Below are positions 31,156 through 52,505 of a stretch of DNA of 64,000 nt, one piece after another. The translations under genes and the position numbers were made by a program. The notes under the pieces were generated by a model. The model did not search any database. It was not told the origin of the DNA and worked only from the letters and a program-made list of their open reading frames with translations. Numbering within the stretch: position 1 is the stretch's first letter; each line of letters begins with the position of its first letter. Origin of the DNA: Candidatus Nomurabacteria bacterium (GTDB lineage: Bacteria; Patescibacteriota; Minisyncoccia; Phycocordibacterales; UBA9973); the NCBI GenBank assembly GCA_016699085.1, contig CP064958.1:271630-335629 (forward strand). The letters run 5' to 3'.

Positions 31156-31156
31156 A

Positions 31157-34033: not shown

Positions 34034-34036
34034 ATA

Positions 34037-34705: not shown

Positions 34706-34713
34706 GGATATTG

Positions 34714-35163: not shown

Positions 35164-36013
35164 TACCTGTTACTTGAGGTAATGTGTAATTGCTTTCTTG
35201 CTTTGGAATCTTAAATGTCGTCTGTAATTTTTGAGCGACAACATTACCTTGAGGTGCTGGGACTGGTGTCGGGGTAGCTGTTGATGGTGCAGTAGATTCT
35301 GGTTGGTTTTTAGGCATGCCCACAAATTGCTGTGGCACTGGCATATCTTGGAGTTTTACTGTAGGCGGAATGATTTTTGGTGTTTGGATAGCACTAGCTA
35401 TACCTACATTAGCAGGCTTTTGTAGTGGATGAGGCATCGATGTGTCGTTTCTGATTGGATTCTCGAGTGACTTTATAAGTGCATCTCGAGTCAATGCTTG
35501 AGCGTCGGTAGTATCTAATGCGTCACTAATAGCGGTCTCTCTCGGTTTGATGAGTTCAATCTTTGCGTCTTTTAGAATATTTGTGGTGTTTTTCTCTTGA
35601 GTTGGGCTATCAAGATCAACAGAAATTATTTCTTTAGGAATTACATCTTGTTGTATAGTTTCAACTACTTCTTCATCCTCAATTGGTCTATTTAATTCTT
35701 CGATCTCCTGCATCTTTTGACGAACTGGAGCAAATATTTTTTCATTGAGATCACTAATCAAAAGCGGTGTTTGGATAACAGAAAGTCCCATTTCTTGCGT
35801 GATCTCTTGTGAGAATTCTTGAGGATTAAGAAGACCTATAAATACAAGTGGAATCAAGCCATCAAGTATTCCAATTTTATCTATATGAAGATTATATTTC
35901 TTCCCTAATTCTTGAGTAATTTGATCAATTTTTATGCGAGAAGTAGCTTGCATAAGTTCAGTTGGTGCATTCTCGAAAGCTTTTTTGATTTCTTCTGGTG
36001 AAATATTTTTCAT
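35123..36013 (-). CDS. Bitopic membrane protein with Pro-rich C-terminal region (T4SS-like cluster)
   Basis: Cytoplasmic N-domain, one TM (IGILDGLIPLVFIGLL) and a P/Q/T-rich extracytoplasmic tail. Confidence 0.45.
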   Translation of the reverse strand: MKNISPEEIKKAFENAPTELMQATSRIKIDQITQELGKKYNLHIDKIGILDGLIPLVFIGLLNPQEFSQEITQEMGLSVIQTPLLISDLNEKIFAPVRQKMQEIEELNRPIEDEEVVETIQQDVIPKEIISVDLDSPTQEKNTTNILKDAKIELIKPRETAISDALDTTDAQALTRDALIKSLENPIRNDTSMPHPLQKPANVGIASAIQTPKIIPPTVKLQDMPVPQQFVGMPKNQPESTAPSTATPTPVPAPQGNVVAQKLQTTFKIPKQESNYTLPQVTGSADKQKDLYREAI

Positions 36014-36020
36014 TGTTCTA

Positions 36021-39000: not shown

Positions 39001-39128
39001 ATCACCTTAACTTCAGGTATATTAAAATTATCATCCAAATAAGCTTCGGCTTTTTGCGGAGTAAATATTGGCAAAAAGCTTCCTGATAGGATAGTGATGA
39101 AGAGCACATAGAGCAGGAATTTTTTCAT
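36021..39128 (-). CDS. Giant polytopic membrane protein, VirB6/TrbL-like core, with ~350-aa ectodomain and ~450-aa charged coiled-coil cytoplasmic tail
   Basis: Signal peptide, large N-terminal ectodomain, at least 7 hydrophobic helices (residues ~330-620), then a K/E/A/Q-rich low-complexity C-terminus. Confidence 0.5.
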   Translation of the reverse strand: MKKFLLYVLFITILSGSFLPIFTPQKAEAYLDDNFNIPEVKVISVGATTAVLQFQLQVNGGNDGNIGHDIYKGRIPPNGSTNGITGWTYIEGQDGNPIYEVLSGQSNSSQGNEEIPGNGGALGSYDPLECNGYGCGVYLDIATNEDNLGTMAKKEAATLSDEEVINGKILDRAGKPIPGITFDQNIGQSIVVIPDIFLGTQTINITVTGLKPDTQYVSQGRLEETCSVIPLIRNCIGELSNDTLSALSDDEEKIAPFKTLPAGSPEVTTSPTGGQNIVEGSTDTGNPGNLPYCLDFSLTSGRAAINMLGCFTQLVYYVLYIPTAALARLAAGFLDWFLHFSLQSSSYTATEFVPQGWRIVRDISNILFIFVLLYIAIGTILRISGVDAKKMIASLVVVALLINFSLFFTKIIIDTSNILARIMYDSVNVTGQSSSVGGEKSITLGLVSKFNPQKIFKTSDIDANANTGWFFFVLLIAIAINIFMFLMFLKVAVLFLGRVIGLMVSMILSPFAFVSWIVPSMKGWMKIGWTNWWHELVSQAFMAPIFLFFLYIIIMATDLKLLPIAASNSPTGGSLESNIQGLIGLIIPFAIIYFLIKTAVDMAVKLSGDIGAASLAVMNKVGGAAVGVATGGAALGLRSTLGAVAAARAKDPDLQRRAAEGDKWAQRQLTISNSMAASSFDFRKTKAGEGFAKQTGWDTKASSGLGGFAQGAANLTLGTGRIDLSTEGGAKGATERKKDARMKEAETYKMSGYEADQQNKKAKDWQERYETDKENARAALGDKFKEADFKKLYEKQMATIYDKDGNITHNGNGGGAKVQSAAEVNAQRMRDSADTIEYGPGYVSAKNAARTANEQQVAEEIAAGVAAGSRTAAFSEEKWREAETISKRNLNATEKATISSLRKQAGEETKDAQKPISITERRRAQQTLDKAAREMAEVNDHLKDIADNIEFETGVRPPVVDESHIKQVVEYRQKDLATAQANLTIAEASKNPIEIAKAHMNIEKAKEDIKMYKEVFAKKDTVEQKTRDANDKLNS

Positions 39129-39262
39129 TACGTAGGATGAATAAGAAAGCTATAATCTGCCTTCTCATTTTATCACTAGAGCCTTTGTTTAGATAGCAAA
39201 AAACTGTTAATTAAAACAAAATACACTTCCTACATTAGGAAGTGTATGAGTAAGGAGATTGT

Positions 39263-41515
39263 TTAGTAATTCTGTGGGAGATAATCACTGATTGAGCTCC
39301 TGTAGAATTTACTACACTCCATTTTAAACGGCTCATTATTGTAGCCTTTCGTATAGGTATATCCTCCTCCCTCACCTGCGTGATAGACAAATGGTATCTC
39401 TGAGAAAATCCATTGCCAGCCTGGTTCAACGAGTGGATCGGCGTCATGATTTGCATCAGTTCCGCAGAAAAGTAGTTGCACGGCATCTTTGCCGACCGCT
39501 TCTCTTGCAATTGGGTCTGTGCTATTTTTTTCGTTTAGGCAAGCCTGCTGGAGAGATGGTTCACTAATGGTAGTTCCGGGCGTATAGTTTGCAGGATCAG
39601 ATGAGCATTTTTTATATAATGCATTAATATCTTCGCCACTTACTTTAAACGCGTAGGATAGATCAGCAACATAGCCGTTACATTCATTTTGGGCATCACT
39701 AATCGTATCACTGCGGCTAATTTTATCTTTTAAAACTACATATTGTCCTGCAAGTTGGTTTTTATACTGAGCAACACTTGCAGAATCAGGGCTACCATCA
39801 GAAGGTTTTGGGTGTGCGGCTATGCCTGCAACGATGCTCTTTAATAATGCAAGGGATCGTACTTTATCAGAAATTCTATTCTGTAGATTACTTTGGTCTT
39901 GGTTGTACTCCTCGACTTTTTTGACTTGATCAACAATTGCTGCTGCAGAAGTAATATTCTTGATAAGGATATTAGTCTGGAAATTAGCGAGAATATATGA
40001 CATTGCATTATTCAAATATTTTATCTGGTCCTGAGCTTGCTCTCCATTATTTGTATTATTATCTGATTTTGATTCCAGTTTTCTTGATTCAGTGGTAAAT
40101 TCTGACTGCATTCTGGATGCGTATTTGTAGTCTGGTCCAGGTAAACATTGGTCAAGCTGCATTGTTCTTAATGGAAATGTTTTTAATAGATCGCGACTTG
40201 CAGTTAGAATCGTAAGCTCTGTTTGGGTTTTATTTATTGCATCAAGTAATTCTGGGGATGGTGTTCCAGGAGCTGTCCCTTCGAGAGGTACTGCATCAGC
40301 GACATTCCAGCTAAATGTTCCATTTGTGTCTGACACAAATGCACTGTTATCTCCCGGGCCTTCGACGGTTTCATCACCGCTTCCGGTTGCAATGCTGCCA
40401 ATCAGTTGACTCAAGCCTTTACTAATAAGCCCTGCAGCTAAATTTGAAACAGCATCGACGACTGGACTGCCACTTGCAGAGTCAAGGAGGGCTTTTTCAA
40501 GTGGTGCAGTGACAGATTGGTTGAGCTGATCAGCAACAAGTTTGCCTGGAGTTACAGTTTCATACCTTGCGCAGTCATCGCTAGCATCAAATTGGATACT
40601 GCTTCCGAGGCTGAGGCTTAAGCTGTTCAAATAATCATCTGCATTCGTGCCGCTGCTCGTACATTCACTGGTTGCGTTTGTATTGTTTGCAGAATCAGAC
40701 TGGCATTCGGTCTTGGTAGTAAACGGGCCGACAGTGTATGTTTGTAGATTGTCATTCACTGCTGTGTATGTCCAATCTGTTGCTGTAATTGCATTTTGAC
40801 CACTTGAGCCATCTTTGTATTCAACACATTTTTTTGCTGACAGGAATCCTCCACTTTGATTGAGTTCATTTTGGATTGTGCCCTGTGCCTCTTTTGCCCG
40901 ATTCTCTAATTCCTCAGCAGTTCGTAAATATGAACCAACGGGATTATTTGCGTCATTTTGAGTAAATGCCATCCAACCATCCCATCCTCCTACAGCAAAA
41001 TCGCCGTCAGTAAAGTCTTGCCAGTTGGGGCCGATTACTTTATCTAAGGTAAATTTTGATTTATCTGCAAACACACTCGAATTTGTTGTCAAATACGAGG
41101 TAATGAGGTTTTTAGCAACCCCTTGGGAATACGGGAACTTTGTTATATCCCCTGTAATTTCATTAACAAAGGATTCAACTTTCTGGTCTGCTATGCTTTT
41201 AAAAAAACTTGATTGATCACGGACAAAAAAAGGATTGCCATTAAATCCAGTTGATCCCCAGTTGATGATTTGCTGGGTCATGTTGAGTGCAACCTGAGAA
41301 CTTATACGCTTGAGAGATTTTTGGAGCAAGGTACCAGCTAAAGTTTTGCCGGCACTCGCAGCTGATTGGGAGCCAAAAATAGTCTGTATAATTTGTTGGG
41401 GCAAATTCGGCAAATCTACAACTGGCAATCCTGCGTGAGCTGGCTTAATTTGTACCGCCAATAATAAGAAAAGACTAAGAAAAGAAATAATACTATACTG
41501 ATAGCGCTTTTTCAT
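39263..41515 (-). CDS. Large secreted protein (750 aa) of T4SS-like cluster, Cys-containing
   Basis: Signal peptide MKKRYQYSIISFLSLFLLLAVQIKPAHA, with multiple Cys pairs. No motif recognised. It could be an adhesin or VirB5-like tip protein. Confidence 0.5.
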   Translation of the reverse strand: MKKRYQYSIISFLSLFLLLAVQIKPAHAGLPVVDLPNLPQQIIQTIFGSQSAASAGKTLAGTLLQKSLKRISSQVALNMTQQIINWGSTGFNGNPFFVRDQSSFFKSIADQKVESFVNEITGDITKFPYSQGVAKNLITSYLTTNSSVFADKSKFTLDKVIGPNWQDFTDGDFAVGGWDGWMAFTQNDANNPVGSYLRTAEELENRAKEAQGTIQNELNQSGGFLSAKKCVEYKDGSSGQNAITATDWTYTAVNDNLQTYTVGPFTTKTECQSDSANNTNATSECTSSGTNADDYLNSLSLSLGSSIQFDASDDCARYETVTPGKLVADQLNQSVTAPLEKALLDSASGSPVVDAVSNLAAGLISKGLSQLIGSIATGSGDETVEGPGDNSAFVSDTNGTFSWNVADAVPLEGTAPGTPSPELLDAINKTQTELTILTASRDLLKTFPLRTMQLDQCLPGPDYKYASRMQSEFTTESRKLESKSDNNTNNGEQAQDQIKYLNNAMSYILANFQTNILIKNITSAAAIVDQVKKVEEYNQDQSNLQNRISDKVRSLALLKSIVAGIAAHPKPSDGSPDSASVAQYKNQLAGQYVVLKDKISRSDTISDAQNECNGYVADLSYAFKVSGEDINALYKKCSSDPANYTPGTTISEPSLQQACLNEKNSTDPIAREAVGKDAVQLLFCGTDANHDADPLVEPGWQWIFSEIPFVYHAGEGGGYTYTKGYNNEPFKMECSKFYRSSISDYLPQNY

Positions 41516-41538
41516 GTTGTTTTAGTATAACACCCGCT

Positions 41539-42483
41539 TTATTGTGAACCAAAGCCTCCTGCAATATAAATATCATTTTGAAGTATATTTAAATTTGTCT
41601 CGAGTGAAGTCAAAATATCATTTGACTGGTAAATACTTGCAAGTGCTGGAATTGGATCAATAGGATATTTGGCAATATCGGCAAACATATCAGCTGTTCT
41701 GTTGATACTATTAATAAGGGCAAGATGTGTCACTGCCTCGCTCTCAGGTACTGGCAAAGCGATAAGCGTAGTAACTAATGCGTGATACTTGTCAGCGATT
41801 TTTTGTATATTTGCATCAGGTGTCGTTAAGTTTGGAGTAACAACAATACTACCAAGGGTAATAAAATCTTCTTGTTTAATTGGGTATTTGAGTAATGCAT
41901 TACCAAAACCAGTAATATATGCCAAAGAGTTAGTGCTCGTATTAGCGTTACTTTTAATATCAGTAATTGTGTATGTTTTCCCTGGTGGTTTAGTTTTTAT
42001 AAACGTGATTATTTCAGCTGTAATGCTTGCTGATGATTCATCAGTTAGTTCTCCATTTTCTTGCAATGCTGCAATCGTTGAGAAAAGCTCTCTGGTAAAT
42101 GTATCTGTTTGACTTAAAATTTCACTGGCAGATTCCTCTGATGTTGCTGTTGATGTATTAATAGACGTGCGTAGATTGGCAACTTCTTCACCATCGCTTA
42201 TGCCATTACCATTTGTGTCTGAATTTTTTGGGTCCATATCCCACAGTGGCTCTTCCCAATCAGCTAATCCATCGTTATCTGTGTCTGTTTCAACAAGCGT
42301 ACCTAATGCGACGGTAGGTCCTGCAGGAATACGAGTATCTTTGATCTCATTTGTTTTATTAAACTCGATCCGAGTACGTATGTATGAAATGCCAACACCG
42401 ACAATGATGACAATGCCGATAATCAAAAGCACGCGAAGCATCTTTTTGCTAGGTAAATATGAAGTGATTCTAGATGGTTCCAC
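41539..42483 (-). CDS. N-terminally anchored protein with Asp-rich Ca-binding-like repeat. First gene of the cluster after ksgA
   Basis: TM VLLIIGIVIIVGVGISYI, then DTDNDGLADWEEPLWDMDPKNSDTNGNGISDGEE (thrombospondin type 3 / dockerin-like). Confidence 0.5.
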   Translation of the reverse strand: MEPSRITSYLPSKKMLRVLLIIGIVIIVGVGISYIRTRIEFNKTNEIKDTRIPAGPTVALGTLVETDTDNDGLADWEEPLWDMDPKNSDTNGNGISDGEEVANLRTSINTSTATSEESASEILSQTDTFTRELFSTIAALQENGELTDESSASITAEIITFIKTKPPGKTYTITDIKSNANTSTNSLAYITGFGNALLKYPIKQEDFITLGSIVVTPNLTTPDANIQKIADKYHALVTTLIALPVPESEAVTHLALINSINRTADMFADIAKYPIDPIPALASIYQSNDILTSLETNLNILQNDIYIAGGFGSQ

Positions 42484-42502: not shown

Positions 42503-43324
42503 TTAGATTTCTTTTTCTAAAGAGTTTTGCAGTAGCTTTTTTGCAATAATAAACCAGGTTTCTAAATCTATGTCCTCTGCCCGTATTTGTTCTGGTAAAT
42601 CTCCGGCTTGCCAAATATTGGTCAGTGCATCATATGGCATAGGCAATGATGTAAGATTTCTGATGAGTACTTTGCGTTTATGGGCAAATCCTGTGCGAAC
42701 AACATTGAAAAAATGTTTTTCCGATACAGCATACTTTGTAAAAAGATTTTTTGAGATTTTCTCAATTGAAAGTATGGCTGAGTCGACGCGAGGCGGTGGT
42801 GTAAAACTACCGCGTCCTACCTTGGCTATGATCTTTGGGTTACCGTAGGCTTTGACTGCGATTGAGAGAATGCTTTCCTTGTTGTCTTTAGCGATAATCC
42901 TTTCGGCGACTTCTTTTTGCACCAAAAGAACCATCTGTTCTGGTATACAAGGAGCGCTCAAGATATGCTTCAATATTGCGCCAGTGATATTGTATGGGAT
43001 ATTGGCAATGACTTTGTAGGTAAGATCATGATAAAAAGCAAATACACCTGGGTCAAAATCAAGAATGTCTTTTTCAATAAGCTCAAGTTTACCGTCTGCT
43101 ATTTCTTTTGCAAATGTAGCCGAAAGTTCTTCGACTAGTGTACGATCTTTTTCAATCGCAACCACTTTGCCAGCAAAAAAAAGTAATTTTTTGGTAAGCA
43201 CACCGTGCCCTGGTCCAATTTCAAGAATAATATCAGTCGGCTGTATATCCCCACTCTCTATAATAGTGTCGAGTGCGTGTTGGTTATGGAGAAAGTGTTG
43301 TCCTAAAGATTTTTTAGCAAGCAT
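42503..43324 (-). CDS. rsmA: 16S rRNA (adenine1518/1519-N6)-dimethyltransferase RsmA/KsgA
   Basis: KKSLGQHFLHNQ, SAM-binding ILEIGPGHGVLT, ANIPYNITGAIL. The true start is the internal ATG at 43322-43324. The longer ORF to 43630 overlaps the helicase. Confidence 0.85.
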   Translation of the reverse strand: MLAKKSLGQHFLHNQHALDTIIESGDIQPTDIILEIGPGHGVLTKKLLFFAGKVVAIEKDRTLVEELSATFAKEIADGKLELIEKDILDFDPGVFAFYHDLTYKVIANIPYNITGAILKHILSAPCIPEQMVLLVQKEVAERIIAKDNKESILSIAVKAYGNPKIIAKVGRGSFTPPPRVDSAILSIEKISKNLFTKYAVSEKHFFNVVRTGFAHKRKVLIRNLTSLPMPYDALTNIWQAGDLPEQIRAEDIDLETWFIIAKKLLQNSLEKEI

Positions 43325-43325
43325 G

Positions 43326-45236
43326 TTATTCAAAGTATAGTATTTTTTCACTGCGTCCTCTAGATTGGTAGAGTTCTTGTTCGACGAGCAAAGGCGGAAT
43401 ATCATAAATAAATTCCGAAGGTATATTGATTTGGCGCATACCAAATATAGTTCTCGTTTCTGCGTATGATAGATAGAGAAATTCCTTAGCGCGAGTGACA
43501 GCGACATAAAACAACCTGCGTTCCTCTTCGGCATCTTCGATTGTCTTACTATCGAGTCTGGCATGTGGGAAAAGATCTTGTTCAAGGCCAACAATAAAGA
43601 CAACTTTAAATTCCAAACCCTTCGCGGCATGGACGGTCATGAGCCTAACCCCACCTCTGTCTTCTTCTAGATTATCTTGATCGCTTGCGAGTGCTGCGTC
43701 AGTTAAAAGCTTATCCATGCCTTCATCAATCCCCCATGCGTCATACTTGGTCGCAAGTGTTACGAGTTCTTCTAAGTTCATGAGTCGATCTTCATCATCT
43801 ACGCCTCCAGCTCGTAATGTCTCGTCAATTTTTGCTTCATGAAGAATATACTTAAATACTTCTGATGGAAGCATGGTTTTTTTACATTCGTTGATACGAT
43901 CGAGTAGTTCATAGAAAGCATTGATTTTTACTTGCATTGGTCTTGGTAATGATTCAAGTTCTCCGGCAAATAGTTTTACCAATGTCACTTTACCAATGCC
44001 TCGTGTTGGGAAATTGATGATGCGTTTGATGTCAGATAGTGAATTGCGATTGTGCGCTGCCCGAACATAGGCAAGCATGTCTTTGATCTCTTTACGCTCA
44101 AAGAATTTTGTACCAACAACTTGGTATGGAATATTGGAACCTAGCATGGCTTCCTCGAGTACGCGTGATTGGAAGTTGGCTCGATATAAAACGGCAATAT
44201 CCTTTGGAGCTGTTCCCTCTCGAATGAAGTTGTCTGCTGTGTCAGCGACAAATTGCGCTTCATCATTCTCACCAAAGGCAGTATAGAGCTTGATACTATC
44301 ACCGTCTTTACCGGTATGCAGAAGAAGTTTCGGTATCCGAACAGTATTTTTTTTAATGATAGCGTTTGCCGCATCCAGGATTACTTTTGTCGATCGGTAA
44401 TTATGCTCAAGAAAAACAATCTTGGCTTCTGGATAGTCCTTCTCAAACCGAAGCATATTTTTCATGTTGGCACCCCGCCAGCTATAAATGTTTTGGTCCA
44501 TATCTCCCACGACGCAGATATGATGGTCATTGCCGACCAATAGCTTGGCAAGTTCATATTGCACTGTATTGGTGTCTTGGTATTCGTCAATGTGGACGTA
44601 GCGCCAGCGCGACTGATATTCATCACGTATGGTTTGGTTACGAAGTGCGATAAGTGCATAGAGCAAGAGATCGTCGAAATCAACCGAACCTTCTTTCTTT
44701 TTCTTCTCTTCATATTTCTGCCAAACACTATTGATAAGTTCTTCACTATAGTTTGAAGCTTTGGCTGCAAATTGTTCTTGGGTCTCACCTTCACCTTTGG
44801 CCTTAGATATGACGTATCGGAATTTGCGTGGCTCTTGGGCTTTGGGATCAAGGCCGAGCTCTTTGATGGATTCTTTGATAAGCGATATCGTATCTCCGTC
44901 ATCTAAAATAGTAAAATATCTTGTTAAATTAAAAAGTCTTGCGTGTTCACGCAGGATAGTCGCTGCCAACGCATGAAATGTTGCGACAAATGGCACTTCG
45001 GTTATACCTTTTGGTAACACGTTTACCACACGCTCACGCATTTCTTTAGCAGCTTTGTTGGTAAAGGTGATAGCTAGAATATGTGATGGCAACACGCCTT
45101 CTTTGATGAGGTGCACAATCCGATGAGTAATGGTTTTTGTCTTGCCAGCGCCAGCGCCGGCCACGATTAATAGTGGTCCATGTATAGAAAGTGCGGCCTC
45201 TTTTTGCTTTTCATTGAGTCCATCGAGATATTCCAT
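43326..45236 (-). CDS. pcrA: ATP-dependent DNA helicase, UvrD/PcrA/Rep family
   Basis: Walker A GAGAGKTKTITHRIVHLI, VHIDEYQDTN, and the helicase motifs of SF1A. Confidence 0.9.
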   Translation of the reverse strand: MEYLDGLNEKQKEAALSIHGPLLIVAGAGAGKTKTITHRIVHLIKEGVLPSHILAITFTNKAAKEMRERVVNVLPKGITEVPFVATFHALAATILREHARLFNLTRYFTILDDGDTISLIKESIKELGLDPKAQEPRKFRYVISKAKGEGETQEQFAAKASNYSEELINSVWQKYEEKKKKEGSVDFDDLLLYALIALRNQTIRDEYQSRWRYVHIDEYQDTNTVQYELAKLLVGNDHHICVVGDMDQNIYSWRGANMKNMLRFEKDYPEAKIVFLEHNYRSTKVILDAANAIIKKNTVRIPKLLLHTGKDGDSIKLYTAFGENDEAQFVADTADNFIREGTAPKDIAVLYRANFQSRVLEEAMLGSNIPYQVVGTKFFERKEIKDMLAYVRAAHNRNSLSDIKRIINFPTRGIGKVTLVKLFAGELESLPRPMQVKINAFYELLDRINECKKTMLPSEVFKYILHEAKIDETLRAGGVDDEDRLMNLEELVTLATKYDAWGIDEGMDKLLTDAALASDQDNLEEDRGGVRLMTVHAAKGLEFKVVFIVGLEQDLFPHARLDSKTIEDAEEERRLFYVAVTRAKEFLYLSYAETRTIFGMRQINIPSEFIYDIPPLLVEQELYQSRGRSEKILYFE

Positions 45237-45284: not shown

Positions 45285-45383
45285 AAGAAAGTTTGGATAA
45301 ATTTTTTCTTGTTGCGGAACTCATCCAATTAAAATTGGATTCAAACAGTCCTCACGGCAAAAAATATTTTTCCAAACTTTCTT
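45285..45383. repeat. Intergenic element family copy B
   Basis: Flanks aagaaagtttggataaatttttt / aaaaatatttttccaaactttctt. Core CTTGTTGCGGAACTCATCCAATTAAAATTGGATTCAAACAGTCCTCACGGCA. Confidence 0.85.
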
Positions 45384-45445
45384 TTGGTTTGTTCATAAAC
45401 AACAAAAGTGCCATGGTATACCATGGCACTTTTGTTGTTTATTTA

Positions 45446-45754
45446 TTATTTTCCAATTTGACTCATCACATCCATGCTCTCTTGTTGGAATCGTTCTGCT
45501 TCTTCTTTGGCCATGACATCGAAGTTCTCAACGTTAGTTCGTAGGTATTCCATAAGTTCTTCGGGACTTGCATCGTTATCGAGCATTTTCTCAAATGCTT
45601 TTTGCATTGTGTCATCCATTGTTTCCATTGCCTTGATAAGAACACTCTGGAAGATTAGTCCACCGATTCGTTCGATAGTATCATTCTGTTCTGCCTCAGA
45701 TAATCCACCTAAGTTGTATGCAGCAATAATTGTTTTTCGTAATGTTGGATCCAT
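45446..45754 (-). CDS. Hypothetical small acidic protein
   Basis: 102 aa, helical and acidic, last gene of the operon that begins at 50941. Confidence 0.4.
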   Translation of the reverse strand: MDPTLRKTIIAAYNLGGLSEAEQNDTIERIGGLIFQSVLIKAMETMDDTMQKAFEKMLDNDASPEELMEYLRTNVENFDVMAKEEAERFQQESMDVMSQIGK

Positions 45755-45799: not shown

Positions 45800-48700
45800 T
45801 TATTTTGGTATGTTGCCTGTCGGTATAGTAGCTCCGGGTCTATTTGCAACATTAGGAATTCCCCCGTTGTTTACGCCTGGCCGATTGGTAACATTCTGGA
45901 GTCCGTCGTTACTTACTCCGGGTCTGTTGGCAAGTTTCTGTAATCCGCCTGTTGTAGCTTGCCCATCTGTTGTACTGGTTGGTAGTGCATCTGGTCGTGA
46001 TGGTAGTGGCTGTAAGTTTGGATTGTTAGGCAATGGCTTTAGTGCCTGTGCGCCAGTGCCAGATTTATTATTGTAACCATATTCGTAGCTATCGGGATTT
46101 GATTCAAATGCAGAACTGCCAATGATGTGCATTCCGTTGTCTTTTGGTATGCCGTCCATATATTCTTGAACTAAGTAGCCAGCGCCAAAAGGATTTTTCT
46201 CAATAGCGTACGATGCATGACCAATGCTGCCCGTAGCGAGGCGAACTTCATGTCCATTTTGGAAGTAGCCAGTTTTGCTTGCAATCTCATGCGCTTGGTG
46301 TTGTGCGAATTCATGCAAATCACCACCAGTCCAGCCCATTTTTGCAGCCAATGCACCATTATTGGCTTCAAGTTGTCGTATAAATACATTTTCAACACCG
46401 TCACCTTTTTGTACCAATGCATATTCGCTAATCGAAGTTGGAGTTTCTATTGTTGGCTGATCAATGGTCGTTGGGTGGTCTACAGTTGCTGGTGCCTGGT
46501 TTGCAAAATGCTCAGTGGCGTAGTGTCCTGCCCATAGCCCAAAGCCAATGCTCGAAGCTCCACGGATGCCGGCATTCAAGTAACGATCAAGGCTCTCACT
46601 CTTTTGCTTTCTTTTGTGAACACTTTGATACAGTGCCTCATTTCTGGTGAGCCATTCATTACCAAATCCTTCACCGTATTTATTGAGACGCTTCATGCGT
46701 TCCATGTCTCTCTCAAAATCTCTGTCAATTATTTTTTGATTATGGAAAAGATTTTTGATTCCAATCCCTACTTCACCAGCTGCGGCACCACCGACAACTC
46801 TCGCACCTACACCAGCTGCCGCTGCGCCAAAGGCAGCCAAGCCTCCGCCGCCTGTGAGTGTTGTGACTACTGCGACTCCTGTACCTATACCGATCGATAG
46901 AAGGATGCGTTTCCAGCGAGGTTGAATTTTGCCATACCATGCGATGCCTTTTTCCAAAATACCGCGTTCACGTGTTGGTAATGCCTCTAGTTTTGCTCGA
47001 GCAAGTGTGTCACCTTCATCGAGAATGAGTGTTTTAAATAAAGCGCCATTTTGAAAGCTATCGAGTGCCAATTTCTTTTCTACTGGACTCGCATGATTAC
47101 GGTCAAGCTTGTCGTTTTCTTGTTTAAGTAGATGTTTGCCGTACGCGACCTTGGCGTCCTTGTACGTTTGTTGGGCACGCTCGTGTGCAAGGCGCACTGG
47201 GTCAGTCGCCTTGAGATCTTCTTTGGCAATTTTTTCACCCACAAGTTTGTTCCAAATATTTCTTTGAAACCATGCACCGAAACCTTTTTTATTGCGAGCT
47301 TGATCCTGTCGCTCTTCGAGCATGTCGCGGTAGGTTTCGATATAGATTGCACGTGCTTCTTGTAATGATTGCTCAGGAGTTTTGGCTTGTTCTTGTCGAT
47401 TAGCTGGATCATTTATTTGCTGCGCAAGCACTTCTCCTGGTGCCTGCCTTGCTTCAGTCGGTTGTGGCTCTGTTCTCGCTGTAGTTTCATTTTCTGTTAC
47501 TACATGGATACTTGTTGCACCTTCGTGTTCGCGTATATCTTCTGGGGTTGCGATGCGAAGTTCTCCATTTTCAAATTGTCCAAGAAATTGTCTCTCTGGT
47601 ATTGATTTAGTCTGATTTGAGACAAAATAGACGTTGTACTTTATGCCTCGGGCATTAGTTTTTTCTTGAATATCAGTTATAGAAAATAGCTCTTTCTTTA
47701 CACTATCGAAAATAGTAGTACCTTTTTTTAATTCAAACGCCGGGGATGTTTCCACTTTTTCTACCTCTGGAGTTTTAGTTTCGATAGGTTCCCCGTCTGC
47801 TAGTAATAATATTTTCCCTGAGGTAAATGCGCGAGCAAGGTTAATTGCTGATACTTCATTCGGTTTATCACTAAAAACATATGCATTGAATTTTTCTCCC
47901 TTAAAATTTGTTTGCTCTTTAATTTCTAAAACAGTAAGTATTTTTCTTTTACTTACACCAGGCAGAGCCTCTCCGACGCGACTACCAATCTTAAGTTTTG
48001 CAACCTTGTCCATACCGGCAGTAATTTCTGGTTTTGCTTCGACTGCCCCCGCTTTCTTTTCTGGTGGAGTTATTTTGGTTTCTACAGTTGGTGCTGGTGT
48101 TTCACTCTCAGTCATTAGTCTAATTTTCCCTGTAGCAAAGGCAAACGTGAGTCCTCTTGCAGATACCTTGTTTGCTTTGTCACTAAACGTATACATATTC
48201 TTCTCTACGTTTTTGGTCACATCCTCCTCTATATTTAGAAGAGTATGTAGTTTTCTCTTGTTTGCACGAGGTAAAGCTTCACCAACGACGCTACCATTTT
48301 TAAGTGCCATGACTTTTTCCCATGCCGCAGCCCATGATTCATCTGTAATTTTATCTTTAAATTGCTCAGAACCAGTTTTTTTGGTCTCTATTTTTGGTGG
48401 ATGCGTAGATAGTATAGCTACTTTTGGTAGACGCTTTGCCTGTGCTGTGTACGTTGTATAACGTTCACCTTTTTCTTTTTTATTTGCTATTGGTCCAAGT
48501 AAGTTCTCAATGGTCTTATTCGTATATATTTCTGTAGTTGCATTTGTATTCTTATCTAAATCTTCTTTACTAGCGAACACACTTACAGTAAAATGTTCAG
48601 TACCTTTTTCGTCAGTTTCTTCCTTATCGATTCGATAATAGTTGGTATCTTTTTGCCAAGTATCTCCTTCGTGGAAAGTCTTTAATGGTGACATGTAAAA

Positions 48701-49063
48701 TCCACTATTTTCTTTGTATCCTTCTAAGTTCACTTTCTCTTCATTTGAACTAAAAAGCTTTACACCTTGTGCAACCATGTCATCGTATGAAAAAGTCACT
48801 TTATTATTTTTTGAATCTTCGAGTTCAACAGTAGAAGCTTTTGGATCTCCAGGAACTATATTAACTTCACTTATTGTGTAATTTTTTTGATCCCCAGGGA
48901 ATTTCCATACTTGGCCTTTTTCAAATTTTAAATTTTGCTTGATTTGGTCTAATGCTCTATTTTTGCGAGCACGTAAAGCTTCTAGCCCATTATTGATAGC
49001 ATCTGTTTTATTATTTGAACTTTTGATTATGCTCTCAGCAATTTTATCTGTGTCGATCGACAT
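45800..49063 (-). CDS. Very large hypothetical protein (1087 aa) with ~65-aa internal repeats, a Gly/Ala-rich TM segment and a Pro/Asn-rich tail
   Basis: Repeats such as GSVVGEALPRANKRKLHTLLNIEED...FSDKANKVSARGLTFAFATGKIRL and GSRVGEALPGVSKRKILTVLEIKEQ...FSDKPNEVSAINLARAFTSGKILL. TM ILLSIGIGTGVAVVTTLTGGGGLAAFGAAAAGVG. C-terminal NRPGV repeats. Confidence 0.55.
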   Translation of the reverse strand: MSIDTDKIAESIIKSSNNKTDAINNGLEALRARKNRALDQIKQNLKFEKGQVWKFPGDQKNYTISEVNIVPGDPKASTVELEDSKNNKVTFSYDDMVAQGVKLFSSNEEKVNLEGYKENSGFYMSPLKTFHEGDTWQKDTNYYRIDKEETDEKGTEHFTVSVFASKEDLDKNTNATTEIYTNKTIENLLGPIANKKEKGERYTTYTAQAKRLPKVAILSTHPPKIETKKTGSEQFKDKITDESWAAAWEKVMALKNGSVVGEALPRANKRKLHTLLNIEEDVTKNVEKNMYTFSDKANKVSARGLTFAFATGKIRLMTESETPAPTVETKITPPEKKAGAVEAKPEITAGMDKVAKLKIGSRVGEALPGVSKRKILTVLEIKEQTNFKGEKFNAYVFSDKPNEVSAINLARAFTSGKILLLADGEPIETKTPEVEKVETSPAFELKKGTTIFDSVKKELFSITDIQEKTNARGIKYNVYFVSNQTKSIPERQFLGQFENGELRIATPEDIREHEGATSIHVVTENETTARTEPQPTEARQAPGEVLAQQINDPANRQEQAKTPEQSLQEARAIYIETYRDMLEERQDQARNKKGFGAWFQRNIWNKLVGEKIAKEDLKATDPVRLAHERAQQTYKDAKVAYGKHLLKQENDKLDRNHASPVEKKLALDSFQNGALFKTLILDEGDTLARAKLEALPTRERGILEKGIAWYGKIQPRWKRILLSIGIGTGVAVVTTLTGGGGLAAFGAAAAGVGARVVGGAAAGEVGIGIKNLFHNQKIIDRDFERDMERMKRLNKYGEGFGNEWLTRNEALYQSVHKRKQKSESLDRYLNAGIRGASSIGFGLWAGHYATEHFANQAPATVDHPTTIDQPTIETPTSISEYALVQKGDGVENVFIRQLEANNGALAAKMGWTGGDLHEFAQHQAHEIASKTGYFQNGHEVRLATGSIGHASYAIEKNPFGAGYLVQEYMDGIPKDNGMHIIGSSAFESNPDSYEYGYNNKSGTGAQALKPLPNNPNLQPLPSRPDALPTSTTDGQATTGGLQKLANRPGVSNDGLQNVTNRPGVNNGGIPNVANRPGATIPTGNIPK

Positions 49064-49084
49064 AATGGTTTAAATTTAAAATTA

Positions 49085-50941
49085 TTATTTAACTTCTTTA
49101 ACCTCAATTTTCAAATTCAATGCTGCTTGGCGACGTTTTTCTTCTTTTGCATTTACTTTATCACCTATGAATAAATAGTAGCCTTCTCCCTCATCAAGTG
49201 CCTTAACAATATTTTTTCCTCCAGGACGATGCTCCATAGCCAGAGCACTAGTAATACGATTTGCAATTAATTCTTCATATTTATTGAGTGTAATTCGATA
49301 TGAGCGATTTTTATCGTTAGTGCCAGAACTGAATTCAAGTATATCCTCATTTTTTTCAAGATCAAAGTATACTCTTTTAACAATAAATGTATCTTTAGAC
49401 TTAAAAAAAGTTTCGAGAATAAACTGTTGGTAGTTTTCCGTAACCGTTTCGCCCGGCTTGTATATTTGTCCAGCCATATTTATTGGTGTTTCTTCAAGTC
49501 GTTTTGTCTGGTCTCGTAATATTTTCGAAACAACCATTCCTTGAGCTACAACAAATTCCTTGTCAGGACTTTCCTCTGGCGCAAGCACTAGCATAATATT
49601 ATTTTTTTCCTCTTTTATTTCTTTCAGTATGTATTTGGGTGAATTTTGGATTGTAACTGCTTTTACTGCTTCAATAAATAAAGGTTCAGTAATTACATCA
49701 CCAGGTTTTATCATTTTACCCCCAATATATGTACGTGTGATCTCTACATCACTGCCAATTTGGGCTCTACTTTCAGCAGTATCTTTAGTCCTCTTTTCGT
49801 GCTTAATGTTTCGTAGTTCATAGCCATGTCTATATCTCATTACATTCGTTAATTTTGAAACAGTCATAGCTTGTTCACCTTTTTTCTCATAGTCGCCTTT
49901 CCTAACTTGAACTTTCCTTGCCCTTATGTCATTTAACCAATCTCTTTTGCCACATAATATATTAATTATTTCATCATCAATTTCTCCCAACTCCTCATAT
50001 AATTCACTAAGCTCTCTTTCAAGTGTTTCCATGGTACCTGCCCTTTCACCATTACTGATGCCAGCTTTAAATCGATCAAATTCATCAGGCTCACCTATAT
50101 TTTTATAGTAATTAATTTCATCCTCAATATTTTTTAATTGTACCCCTGCTGCTTCTTTGGCTTTCTTGCTTTTTGCATGCGTAAGTTCGTCAAGTTTTTC
50201 TACATAACGTTTTAATAGTTCTTTTTTTTCATATTCTCTACGCAGTGTATCTTGTTCAGCCATCTTTTTCTTATATGCTTTCAGCTCACTTTCATTAAGT
50301 GTTTTGTTGCCTTTATTTACAAAACCACTATTTGGATCTGGTGGGTTTGTGTCAGTAACTTCAATTATTTGACCCCACATTGGATCATAAATACGATCCC
50401 CAGTTTTAAACACATTTGGTATTCTTCTATTAATACGCTCAATTTCTTCAGCTGAAAGGTTTAGGATTCCCTTCATTCGTTTCTTGAAAGCTTCTGAAAG
50501 TTTTCCAAATGGTTTTGATTCGATTTTACTTAGGGGGCCATGGCCGTTATCAACATATTCAATAATTTTATCTTTTGACCAGCTCTTTACACCTTCATGC
50601 CACCCTCGTGATTCAAGGATTGCAATACCTGTTTCAATTAGATTCTGGTTTATTTCCTGACGTTCATGCACACTCATGCCTCCTGATTCTATTTGTTCTC
50701 GTAACAAATCAAAAAATTTAGATAGAGTTGTCTCTTCTTGTTTTTTTACTAGATCTTTATTTTCAACTGATGGCGATTCAGTTTTTTTTGCCGTATTTCT
50801 TGGCTTGGCTACTTTCTTAGGTATTGATTTCTCATCTTCTGGCTTAGACTTGAGAAGATCCTTAATTTTTGATAGGTCATTAGCTTCTACAGGAGTCTTT
50901 TCGTTCGAATCCTTTTTTGCACCCTCAAATTGTTTCGCCAT
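49085..50941 (-). CDS. Large hypothetical charged protein (618 aa)
   Basis: K/E-rich with no TM and no recognised motif. First gene of the operon. Confidence 0.5.
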   Translation of the reverse strand: MAKQFEGAKKDSNEKTPVEANDLSKIKDLLKSKPEDEKSIPKKVAKPRNTAKKTESPSVENKDLVKKQEETTLSKFFDLLREQIESGGMSVHERQEINQNLIETGIAILESRGWHEGVKSWSKDKIIEYVDNGHGPLSKIESKPFGKLSEAFKKRMKGILNLSAEEIERINRRIPNVFKTGDRIYDPMWGQIIEVTDTNPPDPNSGFVNKGNKTLNESELKAYKKKMAEQDTLRREYEKKELLKRYVEKLDELTHAKSKKAKEAAGVQLKNIEDEINYYKNIGEPDEFDRFKAGISNGERAGTMETLERELSELYEELGEIDDEIINILCGKRDWLNDIRARKVQVRKGDYEKKGEQAMTVSKLTNVMRYRHGYELRNIKHEKRTKDTAESRAQIGSDVEITRTYIGGKMIKPGDVITEPLFIEAVKAVTIQNSPKYILKEIKEEKNNIMLVLAPEESPDKEFVVAQGMVVSKILRDQTKRLEETPINMAGQIYKPGETVTENYQQFILETFFKSKDTFIVKRVYFDLEKNEDILEFSSGTNDKNRSYRITLNKYEELIANRITSALAMEHRPGGKNIVKALDEGEGYYLFIGDKVNAKEEKRRQAALNLKIEVKEVK

Positions 50942-50996
50942 AGTCTTTAAATTATGTATAAAATATTAGTTTCTGTCAATTTTTAGCCTTTTTTCT

Positions 50997-51018
50997 TATC
51001 CACATGTCGATGTGGATA
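50997..51018. promoter_or_regulatory. Perfect palindrome of two DnaA-box-like 9-mers upstream of the 50941 operon
   Basis: TATCCACAT-gtcg-ATGTGGATA. The left arm, with its preceding T, is the consensus DnaA box TTATCCACA. It lies 56-77 nt upstream of the start codon. Confidence 0.45.
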
Positions 51019-51305
51019 TCGTGATTGACTCACCCAGCCTAAGGCGGTACCCTTGTATCTGTGGGTGGTATAGAGCTAGTATATATCCTACAAATTTGTT
51101 TACCTAGTAGATATCCCCATTTTCAAGCAATTTCCTCATATTTCTGAACTGATCGTAACGACTGTCTAAGCTTGTGTAATCCTTGCAGCCTTCTTATGTA
51201 GCCATAAGGTCGTTCTGTGAGAGAGCTTCGCAGTTATTTTTTTAGTATATAAAACCCTTTTTAAAAGATTCTTCAAGCGACAACGCTGTCTCAGATCGCT
51301 CAAAG

Positions 51306-52403
51306 ATGATAAAACCCTTATTTTACAAGCGCGGAGCATCCGGGGTTGTTTTTGTGTTGCTGGCTATTGGTTTACTACTCTACCCACTCGAGTCATATGC
51401 CAATTTTTTCTCAACCGCTCTATTTCAAAAGCCCGAAAAAGCTTATGCCCAAAACGTGCCAATAGCTAAAAATTCACAAACATTGCCAATTTTGAGGGCA
51501 GAAAATACGACAGTGGCCATGAAAAGTAGCGAAATTGCTGACATTATTATCTCAGATGATACTGCCTTGGTACCACAAGCTGGACCTTCGGGAACTGTCG
51601 CTGATATGTCAGAAGATATAACGAGTGGTCAGATTAGCACCTATGTTGTTAGATCAGGTGATTCGCTGTCGGTCATAGCTGACATGTTTAATGTCTCTAT
51701 TAATACGATTCTTTGGGCAAATGATTTAAAGAAAGGTCAAGCACTCCAAACGGGTGATACGCTCATTATTTTACCAGTAACAGGACTTAAATATACAGTC
51801 AAAAAGGGTGATACAGTTAGTTCAATTGCTAAAAAGTTTAGTCTTAGTTCATCAGAAGAAATTATTTCATACAATAATTTAGAGACAGTCACAGTTGCTG
51901 TTGGTGATGTACTCATTATTCCTGGTGCAGAATTGCCTGCTGAAGTTCCAGTGACACCAAAGAAAACCCCTGTCAAACAAGGGGGTAGTAGTAGTGTATT
52001 CGTTAAGAATCAATCTGCAGGAAGCAAAATTGCAGGTTACTTTATAAAGCCAATACCGTGTGGCCTTACCCAAAACAAGCATGATAAGTATGCGATCGAT
52101 ATGAGTTGCGGTGGTTCTGGTATGCCAGTCAAAGCTGCTGCAAGTGGTACTGTCAAATTTGCTAAAACTGGTTGGAACGGTGCTTTTGGTAACCTCGTCG
52201 TTATTGCTCATGCTAACGGCACGCAGACTTTCTATGCTCATCTTTCCAAGATAAGTGTTTCAATTGGTCAGGAAGTGAATCAAGGTAGTATTATCGGCAA
52301 TGTCGGTTCTACAGGACGCTCAACTGGTCCACACCTTCACTTCGAAGTTCGAGGTGCGTATAATCCTGGCTTTGACACTTCAGGACAGCTTTGGAAGAAG
52401 TAA
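51306..52403 (+). CDS. LysM-domain M23 family metallopeptidase
   Basis: Two LysM repeats (YVVRSGDSLSVIADMF..., YTVKKGDTVSSIAKKF...) and a C-terminal M23 domain with HLHFEVR. Confidence 0.85.
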   Translation: MIKPLFYKRGASGVVFVLLAIGLLLYPLESYANFFSTALFQKPEKAYAQNVPIAKNSQTLPILRAENTTVAMKSSEIADIIISDDTALVPQAGPSGTVADMSEDITSGQISTYVVRSGDSLSVIADMFNVSINTILWANDLKKGQALQTGDTLIILPVTGLKYTVKKGDTVSSIAKKFSLSSSEEIISYNNLETVTVAVGDVLIIPGAELPAEVPVTPKKTPVKQGGSSSVFVKNQSAGSKIAGYFIKPIPCGLTQNKHDKYAIDMSCGGSGMPVKAAASGTVKFAKTGWNGAFGNLVVIAHANGTQTFYAHLSKISVSIGQEVNQGSIIGNVGSTGRSTGPHLHFEVRGAYNPGFDTSGQLWKK

Positions 52404-52411
52404 AATAGATT

Positions 52412-52505
52412 AAAAAGAGCGAAAAGATTTTTCTTGTTGAGGAACTCATCCAATTAAAATTGGATTCAAACAGTCCTCATTGCAAAAAATCTTTTCGCTC
52501 TTTTT
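52412..52505. repeat. Intergenic element family copy C (between convergent M23 and comM genes)
   Basis: Flanks aaaaagagcgaaaagattttt / aaaaatcttttcgctcttttt form a perfect 21-bp IR. Core CTTGTTGAGGAACTCATCCAATTAAAATTGGATTCAAACAGTCCTCATTGCA. Confidence 0.85.

What the first reader, a model, noticed from the sequence alone, without database searches (positions are those of the whole stretch)
45800..50941. Operon of two very large uncharacterised proteins (618 aa + 1087 aa) plus a small acidic protein
No domain is recognisable by eye. The 1087-aa protein has at least four ~65-aa internal repeats (GxxVGEALP...KRK...FSDKxNxVSA...AFxxGKIxL), a Gly/Ala-rich membrane segment, a ~250-aa C-terminal domain and a Pro/Asn-rich tail with NRPGV repeats. 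The 618-aa protein is extremely charged. This is a candidate novel envelope, effector or toxin-like system. The operon carries the DnaA-box palindrome at one end and family element copy B at the other.
Basis: seen in the sequence. Interest (0 to 1): 0.5.

Follow-up and report, generated by a model that had tools for sequence, protein, structure and literature searches.

The report
Conserved CPR membrane protein with small partner
The three genes are real, but they are not a toxin system: the 1087-aa protein belongs to an undescribed membrane-protein family that is vertically inherited in one branch of the ultra-small 'candidate phyla radiation' bacteria, almost always sits next to a small DUF5663 protein, and has unknown function, most likely in the cell envelope.

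Summary
The ORFs are as described, all on the minus strand: 618 aa (49085-50941), 1087 aa (45800-49063) and 102 aa (45446-45754). A strong promoter lies upstream and a 20-bp-stem terminator downstream. The source is a Candidatus Nomurabacteria (Patescibacteria/CPR) chromosome, about 20 kb from dnaA.

Only the C-terminal half of the 1087-aa protein is conserved. It comprises a cytoplasmic helical domain, a Gly/Ala-rich membrane hairpin, a charged loop, a third membrane helix and an extracytoplasmic alpha/beta domain. This core has 176 homologue clusters and no match in Pfam, NCBIfam, PHROGs, PADLOC or PDB.

The N-terminal half and the 618-aa protein are found only in this species and one sister species. 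Three internal repeats are supported, not four.

The 102-aa protein is a divergent DUF5663 under very strong purifying selection. In about 40 related loci a DUF5663 gene lies directly beside a family member. The usual order is ComM | LysM-M23 | (variable gene) | family | DUF5663 | PcrA | KsgA | T4SS-like cluster. A DnaA box sits between the divergent promoters in 14 of 15 lineages.

Nothing supports a toxin or effector. My best guess, at low confidence, is a cell-cycle-coupled envelope scaffold.

The parts
50996..51019 (.). DnaA-box palindrome: TTATCCACA at 50996-51004(+), a 6-nt spacer, and ATATCCACA at 51011-51019(-). It lies 17 nt upstream of the operon's -35 element, between two back-to-back promoter-like elements.
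   Evidence: The proximal half (TGTGGAWAA, read in the operon direction) is present in 14 of 15 non-redundant orthologous intergenic regions. Shuffles expect 1.6 regions, with a maximum of 7 in 2000 shuffles.
50951..50979 (-). Promoter-like site TTGACA-17-CATAAT. The ATG follows 9 nt after the -10 element, giving a near-leaderless transcript.
   Evidence: (11 of 12 matches, the best in the region). The equivalent element is seen in orthologous loci. Function is inferred, not shown.
49085..50941 (-). 618-aa gene (GenBank QQR50605.1, hypothetical). The protein is highly charged, has no membrane segment and is predicted cytoplasmic. It is a lineage-specific occupant of a variable slot.
   Evidence: Homologues are found only in the same species and one sister species, at 81% identity. 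dN/dS is 0.32 overall and about 1.1 over residues 561-618. Other lineages carry unrelated-looking charged proteins of 227-643 aa in this position, or nothing.
45800..49063 (-). 1087-aa gene (QQR50604.1, hypothetical), a member of an undescribed Patescibacteria membrane-protein family.
47552..48313 (-). Three ~65-aa internal repeats in the variable cytoplasmic N-terminal half, at residues 251-318, 354-422 and 445-504.
   Evidence: repeat 1 vs repeat 2: 52% identity, E 1e-18. (third copy found by profile; single copies also in relatives P0006, P0007 and P0055). The low-confidence AF2 model suggests a small beta-rich fold with one helix.
46919..47383 (-). Conserved cytoplasmic helical domain (residues ~561-715), ending in the family's juxtamembrane motif. 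The family consensus is LPPKEKG...WY.K; here it reads LPTRERG...WYGK.
   Evidence: AF2 core model pLDDT is 77-91 across most of it. It is 95% identical to the sister species, with dN/dS 0.07.
46505..46918 (-). Membrane module: a Gly/Ala-rich hairpin (716-770), a charged cytoplasmic helical loop (771-826) and a third membrane helix (827-853).
   Evidence: Hydropathy of this protein and of the 20-sequence family alignment. The flank before TM1 averages 5.4 K+R against 1.1 D+E. The flank after TM3 is net acidic. This gives an N-in/C-out topology, which is inferred from the positive-inside rule and not tested with a dedicated predictor. dN/dS is 0.03.
46049..46438 (-). Conserved extracytoplasmic alpha/beta module (residues 876-1005). 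Family motif: V.KGEGIEHAFIRQIE.NP.LA..LGF.G...LH.FA...AH.IA..GY...G.EVR.
   Evidence: AF2 pLDDT is 76-94, with two helices and three strands. No Pfam or PDB-sequence match. Not LysM: hhalign probability 2%.
45800..46048 (-). Pro/Asn/Gly-rich low-complexity tail with three 14-aa units containing NRPG[VA], plus the stop codon. It replaces the ~110-aa helical C-terminal domain that most family members carry.
45446..45754 (-). 102-aa acidic helical protein (QQR50603.1, hypothetical), a divergent DUF5663 (PF18908) and the conserved partner of the membrane protein.
   Evidence: 16.8 bits against a cut-off of 23.7. Four of six orthologues pass the cut-off at 24-43 bits. A DUF5663 gene lies beside a family member in 17 of 23 loci found from the membrane-protein side, and in about 22-25 of 26 informative loci found from the DUF5663 side. 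dN/dS is 0.016.
45395..45442 (-). Intrinsic-terminator-like perfect hairpin followed by a T-run. It marks the likely 3' end of the transcription unit in this genome.
   Evidence: I10: 24-nt arms, 100% complementary.

Best explanation
What it is (well supported). This is a chromosomal, vertically inherited two-gene module of Paceibacteria/Nomurabacteria-type Patescibacteria. One gene encodes a large membrane protein and the other a small acidic DUF5663 protein. In this lineage a third, fast-evolving charged cytoplasmic protein (618 aa) is added upstream.

The membrane protein has two halves:
- A hypervariable cytoplasmic N-terminal half. Here it holds three small beta-rich repeats. In relatives the same position holds DnaJ, PP2C, FtsK-gamma or zinc-ribbon domains.
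- A conserved C-terminal core: a cytoplasmic helical domain, a glycine-zipper-like membrane hairpin, a basic cytoplasmic loop, a third membrane helix, a Pro/Thr-rich linker and a ~130-aa alpha/beta domain outside the membrane.

How it most likely works (inferred, low confidence). It acts as a transmembrane scaffold linking interchangeable cytoplasmic adaptor domains to the wall zone. The acidic DUF5663 protein would bind the basic cytoplasmic face of the conserved core. Expression comes from a promoter that shares a conserved DnaA box with the divergent LysM-M23 peptidoglycan hydrolase gene. I therefore propose that it takes part in cell-cycle-coupled envelope remodelling, meaning division or control of wall hydrolysis. 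I do not think it is involved in killing or defence.
For: Shown:
- The genes are real and constrained.
- The family has 176 clusters at 50% identity, and all matches fall in residues ~550-1005.
- All named source organisms are Patescibacteria, apart from one weak hit (E 5e-5) in a MAG labelled Gammaproteobacteria (L023).
- The order ComM | M23-LysM(-) | [variable] | family | DUF5663 | PcrA | KsgA | w314 | w750 | w1035 recurs across more than 30 loci.
- The family-DUF5663 pair persists when the gene order is flipped, and in an unrelated context (EF-G and a Glu-racemase-family gene ... Dus, RecQ). The pair is therefore the conserved unit.
- Three relatives carry a cytoplasm-only J domain N-terminal to the core, and Pfam finds PP2C, FtsK_gamma and Zn-ribbons in others. 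This fits an N-in topology and an adaptor role.
- The charge distribution fits N-in/C-out.
- The DnaA-box block between back-to-back promoter elements is conserved in 14 of 15 lineages, against 1.6 expected.
- oriC genes lie 20 kb away.

Inferred: DUF5663 binding, the link to the hydrolase, and the cell-cycle role.
Against: - The AF2 core model is only moderately confident (pLDDT 63). The membrane part is below 50.
- Adjacency to M23, PcrA and KsgA may simply reflect a rigid, origin-proximal core genome in this class. It is not evidence of shared function.
- The fused DnaJ, PP2C and FtsK-gamma domains occur in only a few members.
- The DnaA-box motif is short, and the loci are phylogenetically related.
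- Topology was not tested with a dedicated predictor. The second arm of the hairpin carries conserved Arg residues and may not span the membrane.
Confidence: 0.35

Rival explanations
1. It is an accessory component of the Patescibacteria type IV secretion-like apparatus encoded just downstream, for example a membrane/wall-spanning or host-contact subunit that replaces the missing VirB8 or adhesin.
For: - The window carries PrgI/VirB3-like (34714-35163) and VirB4-like (32198-34033) genes on the same strand. Several large unannotated genes lie between them and KsgA.
- The 1087-aa gene is 10 genes from virB4, inside the +/-20-gene neighbourhood used in PMC12102498. That paper reports that VirB8 and adhesins are largely undetected in Patescibacteria, and that M23/LysM-containing VirB1-like genes associate with virB4 in Paceibacteria.
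- The architecture, membrane-anchored with an extracytoplasmic alpha/beta domain, is compatible.
Against: - The housekeeping genes pcrA and ksgA, and in this genome a strong terminator, separate it from the cluster.
- The family-DUF5663 pair also occurs away from any PcrA or T4SS neighbours (L019-L021).
- There is no sequence or fold match to VirB6, VirB8 or PrgB-type proteins.
Confidence: 0.15
2. It is a transmembrane sensor or signal transducer. The extracytoplasmic module senses a wall or host cue and relays it to interchangeable cytoplasmic output domains, with DUF5663 acting as a cytoplasmic modulator.
For: The N-terminal cytoplasmic region is modular and swapped between lineages, including a PP2C phosphatase, a J domain and Zn-ribbons. 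The membrane core and outer domain are conserved. The long helical domain next to the membrane resembles signalling stalks, but only generically.
Against: This protein has no recognisable output domain, only beta-rich repeats. No kinase, HAMP, PAS or anti-sigma signature was found in 53 members. Enzymatic fusions are rare.
Confidence: 0.2
3. This is the first reader's reading: a toxin/effector system in which the small downstream gene provides immunity.
For: The proteins are large and unannotated, a small acidic gene lies downstream, the C-terminal tail is repetitive, and a secretion system is nearby.
Against: - No toxin, LXG/Rhs/CDI, signal-peptide or defence profile is present.
- The C-terminus is the conserved part and the N-terminus the variable part.
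- The small gene is under the strongest purifying selection (dN/dS 0.016) and belongs to a widespread family.
- The synteny is fixed in the core genome, and there are no phage or plasmid copies.
Confidence: 0.03

Closest known systems
Pfam DUF5663 (PF18908), a small protein family of unknown function
   Same: The 102-aa protein aligns to the model over residues 43-92. Its orthologues, with E-values of 1e-6 to 1e-37 to it, pass the curated cut-off. Size (~100 aa) and composition also fit.
   Different: The window protein itself scores below the cut-off (16.8 against 23.7 bits). The family has no known function, and a full-text search of the held literature found no paper that mentions it. Its near-obligate pairing with a large membrane protein is, as far as I could find, unreported.
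Membrane-anchored division/elongation scaffolds with a cytoplasmic adaptor domain, a membrane anchor and an extracytoplasmic domain (ZipN/Ftn2/ARC6, MapZ, RodZ). This comparison is recalled from general knowledge and is not a database result.
   Same: The overall logic is similar: an N-in cytoplasmic region, a membrane anchor and a globular domain in the wall zone. Three relatives carry an N-terminal J domain as ZipN/ARC6 does. The neighbourhood includes a wall hydrolase and a DnaA-box promoter.
   Different: No sequence or fold similarity was detected. This family has three hydrophobic segments, including a Gly-zipper-like hairpin, rather than one. The window protein has no J domain. No link to FtsZ or MreB is known.
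Patescibacteria MPF-FATA-type T4SS gene neighbourhood near dnaA/ksgA (Quinonero-Coronel et al. 2025, PMC12102498)
   Same: The chromosomal setting matches what the paper describes for Paceibacteria: virB4 and prgI near dnaA, dnaN and ksgA, with many genes lacking any profile match.
   Different: The 1087-aa family and DUF5663 are not among the components named in the sections I read. They are separated from the cluster by pcrA and ksgA, and the pair also occurs elsewhere in the genome.
Polymorphic toxin / effector-immunity pairs
   Same: A large protein followed by a small gene on the same strand.
   Different: The polarity of conservation is reversed, there is no toxin or trafficking domain, the small partner is conserved rather than variable, and the locus is in the core genome.

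Membership tests
DUF5663 (PF18908), for the 102-aa protein | Score at or above the Pfam gathering cut-off (23.7 bits) | tested here: inconclusive
   The window protein scores 16.8 bits, E 0.011. Orthologues from L004, L012, L019 and L021 score 24.1-43.1 bits and pass. L007 scores 20.6 bits, and L005 has no match at E<=0.01. Membership rests on transitive homology: a profile of the orthologues matches the window protein at 1.9e-42.
Polymorphic toxin / effector-immunity system | Conserved N-terminal trafficking region with a variable C-terminal toxin domain | tested here: not met
   The pattern is the opposite. All 176 homologue clusters match only residues ~550-1005. dN/dS is 0.03-0.09 in the C-terminal core and 0.65-0.75 in parts of the N-terminus.
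Polymorphic toxin / effector-immunity system | Recognisable toxin, secretion or immunity domain | tested here: not met
   No hit in Pfam, NCBIfam, PHROGs, PADLOC or PDB sequences.
Polymorphic toxin / effector-immunity system | Variable or mobile genomic context | tested here: not met
   Synteny is fixed across more than 30 loci. tblastn found nothing in phages or plasmids.
T4SS (MPF-FATA) structural components (VirB6/PrgH, VirB8/PrgL, VirB1, PrgB) | Profile or fold similarity to a known component | tested here: not met
T4SS (MPF-FATA) structural components | Consistent linkage to virB4 | tested here: inconclusive
   The gene is 10 genes from virB4 in the window. The related loci held here include w314, w750 and w1035 but do not reach virB4. 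The pair occurs without these neighbours in L019-L021. Whole-genome co-occurrence could not be tested.
LysM domain, for module 2 (residues 876-1005) | Profile-profile similarity to LysM | tested here: not met
   hhalign of the module-2 alignment against 29 LysM domains from the neighbouring M23 proteins gave probability 2% over 8 aligned columns.
Glycine-zipper membrane domain families (Pfam Gly-zipper clans) | Match to a Pfam Gly-zipper model | tested here: not met
   No Pfam hit at E<=1. Only the compositional resemblance holds: G/A-rich with small-xxx-small spacing in residues 724-768.
ZipN/ARC6-type J-domain division scaffolds | N-terminal J domain, membrane anchor and extracytoplasmic C-terminal domain, with homology to ZipN | not tested
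   The window protein has no J domain. Three relatives have one N-terminal to the core. No ZipN or ARC6 sequences were available for comparison, so the resemblance is architectural only.

The most novel reading that the evidence does not exclude
The large membrane protein and its DUF5663 partner form a Paceibacteria-specific, DnaA-controlled envelope/division module. It would couple replication status to septal wall hydrolysis by the divergently transcribed LysM-M23 enzyme, standing in for canonical divisome regulators that these reduced genomes lack. The hypervariable cytoplasmic half and the variable upstream gene would act as lineage-specific adaptors.
Probability: 0.2. Interest if true: 0.65.

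Novelty: categorically new. Interest (0 to 1): 0.35.

Why it matters
Patescibacteria make up a large part of bacterial diversity, yet most of their lineage-specific proteins are unannotated. This work turns three 'hypothetical proteins' into a defined object. That object has:
- a conserved two-gene module, a new membrane-protein family plus DUF5663;
- a domain map;
- a topology model;
- a conserved DnaA-box promoter architecture shared with a wall hydrolase.

If the module does link replication to envelope remodelling, it would bear on how ultra-small epibiotic cells divide without much of the standard machinery.

If it does not, the practical result is still useful. The locus is not a toxin, defence or mobile system. 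Two new conserved domains (residues ~561-860 and 876-1005) are ready for family curation.

'Categorically new' here means only that no known family or system fits the evidence. It does not mean that a new mechanism has been shown.

Tried and rejected
- Word-indexed homologue searches with the whole proteins and with the core alignment returned almost nothing. They were probably swamped by low-complexity words. The exhaustive phmmer search was needed.
- AF2 of the full protein with two sequences was useless, at pLDDT 34.
- Foldseek against PDB found nothing better than E 0.37. The afdb50 library was unavailable. The model could not be cropped, so module 2 was never searched alone.
- Profiles of module 2 and of the core matched nothing meaningful in Pfam or PDB sequences. 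The single E=0.006 hit, to 2gqb 'conserved hypothetical protein', was not followed up.
- LysM was rejected for module 2.
- Homology between the 618-aa protein and the proteins in the same position in other lineages is not significant: hhalign E 0.28, despite collinear look-alike motifs. The same holds against the N-terminal repeats of the 1087-aa protein, E 0.097. A shared beta-repeat module therefore remains an eye-level impression.
- A fourth and fifth repeat at residues 41-190 were not detected by the repeat profile.
- DUF5663 fused to family members that lack a separate partner gene (L015-L017, L022) was not found.
- No Rfam family matches the M23-side leader or the 75-nt hairpin element. 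Only sub-threshold hairpin noise was seen.
- A literature search for DUF5663 found no papers.


Full report
**1. The observation**

The minus strand carries three consecutive ORFs: 49085-50941 (618 aa), 45800-49063 (1087 aa) and 45446-45754 (102 aa). They are separated by 21 nt and 45 nt.

The best promoter-like site in the region is TTGACA-17-CATAAT at 50979-50951. It ends 9 nt before the first ATG, which implies a nearly leaderless mRNA. A perfect hairpin with a 20-24-bp stem and a T-run lies at 45395-45442, after the third gene. A three-gene transcription unit is therefore plausible but inferred.

The compositional statements hold. The 618-aa protein is 36% charged. The small protein has pI 4.3. 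A Gly/Ala-rich hydrophobic stretch is at residues 716-770. Three NRPG[VA]-containing units are at the C-terminus.

The repeat claim is overstated:
- Residues 251-318 and 354-422 are 52% identical (E 1e-18).
- A third copy (445-504) is recovered only by a profile of the first two (2.7e-4).
- Nothing else, including the 618-aa protein, is detected.

The DnaA-box palindrome (50996-51019) and the 75-nt repeated element (45296-45370) are real.

Comparison with the sister species shows that all three genes are real and under selection. dN/dS is 0.24, 0.32 and 0.016 respectively. For reference, PcrA is 0.026 and M23 is 0.07.

**2. Source and annotation**

The proteins are GenBank QQR50603.1 to QQR50605.1, all named 'hypothetical protein'. 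They come from an 808-kb contig of a Candidatus Nomurabacteria bacterium (Patescibacteria, Parcubacteria group).

The window also holds dnaA, dnaN, yidC and jag, and a T4SS-like cluster with a PrgI/VirB3-like and a VirB4-like gene. This matches the origin-proximal T4SS neighbourhood described for Paceibacteria in PMC12102498.

**3. Anatomy of the 1087-aa protein**

No Pfam, NCBIfam, PHROGs, PADLOC or PDB-sequence match exists.

An exhaustive phmmer search found 176 homologue clusters at 50% identity, 57 of them at E<=1e-10. Apart from the sister-species orthologue, which aligns over the full length, they match only residues ~550-1005; the next closest homologue, P0006, extends back to residue 334.

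A profile splits the conserved part into two modules:
- **Module 1 (550-875).** It has a ~170-aa helical cytoplasmic domain ending in a conserved juxtamembrane motif, a Gly/Ala-rich hairpin, a ~60-aa charged helical loop and a third hydrophobic helix.
- **Module 2 (876-1005).** This is an alpha/beta domain with the motif V.KGEGIEHAFIRQIE.NP.LA..LGF.G...LH.FA...AH.IA..GY...G.EVR.

Among the top 150 homologues:
- 31 have both modules.
- 95 lack module 2.
- About 25 have module 2 with or without the membrane part.

Most members also carry a ~110-aa helical C-terminal domain. The window protein lacks it and has the Pro/Asn-rich tail instead.

N-terminal regions are unrelated between lineages, with a median length of 218 aa and a range of 1-958 aa. 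Occasionally they contain DnaJ, PP2C, FtsK-gamma or zinc-ribbon domains. The J domains lie N-terminal to module 1.

Three lines of evidence bear on topology:
- These fused domains are cytoplasmic-only.
- The flank before TM1 is strongly basic, and the TM2-TM3 loop is rich in K/R.
- The flank after TM3 is acidic.

Together they give an N-in/loop-in/C-out topology. This is an inference from the positive-inside rule, not a tested prediction.

AF2 on a 20-sequence core alignment gave pLDDT 63. The helical domain (77-91) and module 2 (76-94; two helices and three strands) are confident, and the membrane part is poor. Fold searches gave nothing specific, and module 2 is not LysM.

Against the sister species the core is 91-97% identical (dN/dS 0.03-0.09). 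Residues 1-50, 331-440 and 516-560 are 28-49% identical (dN/dS 0.65-0.75).

**4. The partner**

The 102-aa protein scores just below the DUF5663 cut-off, but four of six orthologues pass it.

Starting from the membrane protein, 17 of 23 fetched loci have a DUF5663 gene immediately adjacent. In L015-L017 and L022 the membrane gene abuts pcrA, no DUF5663 gene is detected, and no fused copy was found. L023 also lacks one. L003 ends before the partner position.

Starting from DUF5663 in metagenomes, about 22 of 26 loci with enough flank have a profile-detected family member next door. It is upstream in most and downstream in L043, L045 and L046. Three more (L049, L050 and L060) have an undetected large membrane protein with three or four hydrophobic segments in that place, and one (L051) is an exception.

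In L019-L021 the pair sits in a different neighbourhood: EF-G and a Glu-racemase-family gene upstream, Dus and RecQ downstream. The pair is therefore the conserved unit, not the wider synteny.

**5. The 618-aa protein**

Homologues exist only in the same species and one sister species.

In other lineages the slot between the divergent M23 gene and the membrane-protein gene is either empty or filled by charged proteins of 227-643 aa. These show no significant similarity to the 618-aa protein.

It is a real gene (dN/dS about 0.2 over residues 71-560), but its C-terminal 58 residues evolve neutrally. I treat it as a lineage-specific, fast-evolving cytoplasmic accessory. Its by-eye resemblance to the beta-repeats of the 1087-aa protein is not statistically supported.

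**6. Genomic context and regulation**

The order ComM | LysM-M23 (divergent) | [slot] | family | DUF5663 | PcrA | KsgA | w314 | w750 | w1035 recurs across Nomurabacteria/Paceibacterota MAGs. In many loci only 20-30 nt separate DUF5663, or the family gene, from pcrA.

No relatives occur in phage or plasmid collections.

The intergenic region shared with the M23 gene contains a conserved block: GGGTAGC-N~14-AAGTCAAT-N5-6-TGTGGAWAAC-N3-8-TTGACA-N17-TAnAAT. On the opposite strand this reads as a second promoter, TTGACT-N17-TACCCT, at window 51025-51053. A single DnaA-box-like site thus lies between two back-to-back -35 elements.

The box is present in 14 of 15 non-redundant lineages. Shuffles expect 1.6. 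The caveats are that the loci are related and the motif is short.

This points to co-regulation with the wall hydrolase and a tie to DnaA. Neither has been shown.

**7. Interpretation**

The toxin/effector reading fails on every testable criterion: domains, polarity of conservation, conservation of the small gene, and context.

What remains is an undescribed, lineage-restricted membrane-protein family with an obligate small cytoplasmic partner. I favour a transmembrane scaffold role in cell-cycle-coupled envelope remodelling (confidence about 0.35). The alternatives are a sensor/transducer (0.2), a T4SS accessory (0.15) and a toxin (0.03). The remaining probability is 'something else'.

These functional statements rest on architecture and neighbourhood only.

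**8. Novelty and score**

No known family or system accommodates the two large proteins. The pairing with DUF5663 and the DnaA-box promoter architecture appear unreported in the literature I could search.

That makes the object new in kind by default. However, unannotated lineage-specific membrane proteins are common in these genomes, and no mechanism is demonstrated. Interest is moderate, at 0.35.

Noticed in passing
window 51020-51305 (+ strand, upstream of the LysM-M23 gene at 51306-52403); also L009, L010, L013, L014, L016, L018, L042, L048: There is a ~200-250-nt conserved region between a promoter-like TTGACT-N17-TACCCT (51025-51053) and the M23 start codon. Related loci share the sequence blocks GTAACC, GGTCGTCCTG and TATAAAACCTCAATTTAAAAT. 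It could be a structured 5' leader or a separate small RNA. RNAalifold gives 19 pairs, 5 of them with compensatory changes, which is weak. No Rfam family matches.
   Followed up: partly
window 45296-45370, 52421-52495, 15143-15212 (inverted), 63175-63248: A ~75-nt intergenic hairpin element occurs in four copies; among the three closely related copies, pairs are 90-93% identical or complementary. The 63181 copy keeps the inner stem through compensatory changes. One copy lies between the operon terminator and pcrA, and another directly after the M23 gene. No Rfam family matches.
   Followed up: partly
window 28297-42483 (- strand): A T4SS-like cluster lies on the same strand as the finding. It includes a PrgI/VirB3-like gene (34714-35163), a VirB4/TraG-P-loop ATPase (32198-34033) and several large genes with no profile match (314, 750, 1035, 296, 222, 324, 479 and 469 aa). 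The 314-, 750- and 1035-aa genes are syntenic across the related loci.
   Followed up: partly
window 23352-28152: The origin region contains dnaN, dnaA, yidC and jag. Four DnaA-box-like sites cluster at 24496-24651, between dnaN and dnaA.
   Followed up: partly
L004 427-2358, L008 2738-4654, L012 3710-5554, L016 2709-5127, L011 1402-2373: The position of the 618-aa gene is a hypervariable slot. Different lineages carry unrelated-looking, highly charged proteins there, or none at all.
   Followed up: partly
L005 3970-5399: In one Paceibacterota relative, a reverse transcriptase (RVT_1) and a bAvd gene lie between ComM and the M23 gene. This is the signature of a diversity-generating retroelement.
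   Followed up: no
window 10885-11148: A 132-nt tandem duplication (86% identical) lies inside the 725-aa ORF at 9649-11826.
   Followed up: no
window 42503-43630 (-): The longest ORF for KsgA/RsmA (375 aa) overlaps the 3' end of pcrA by about 300 nt. Orthologues are 256-295 aa, so the true start is probably internal.
   Followed up: no
cluster of the 102-aa protein (P0156): One source names the 102-aa cluster representative 'cyclopropane fatty-acyl-phospholipid synthase-like methyltransferase'. For a 102-aa DUF5663-like protein this is almost certainly a mis-annotation.
   Followed up: no
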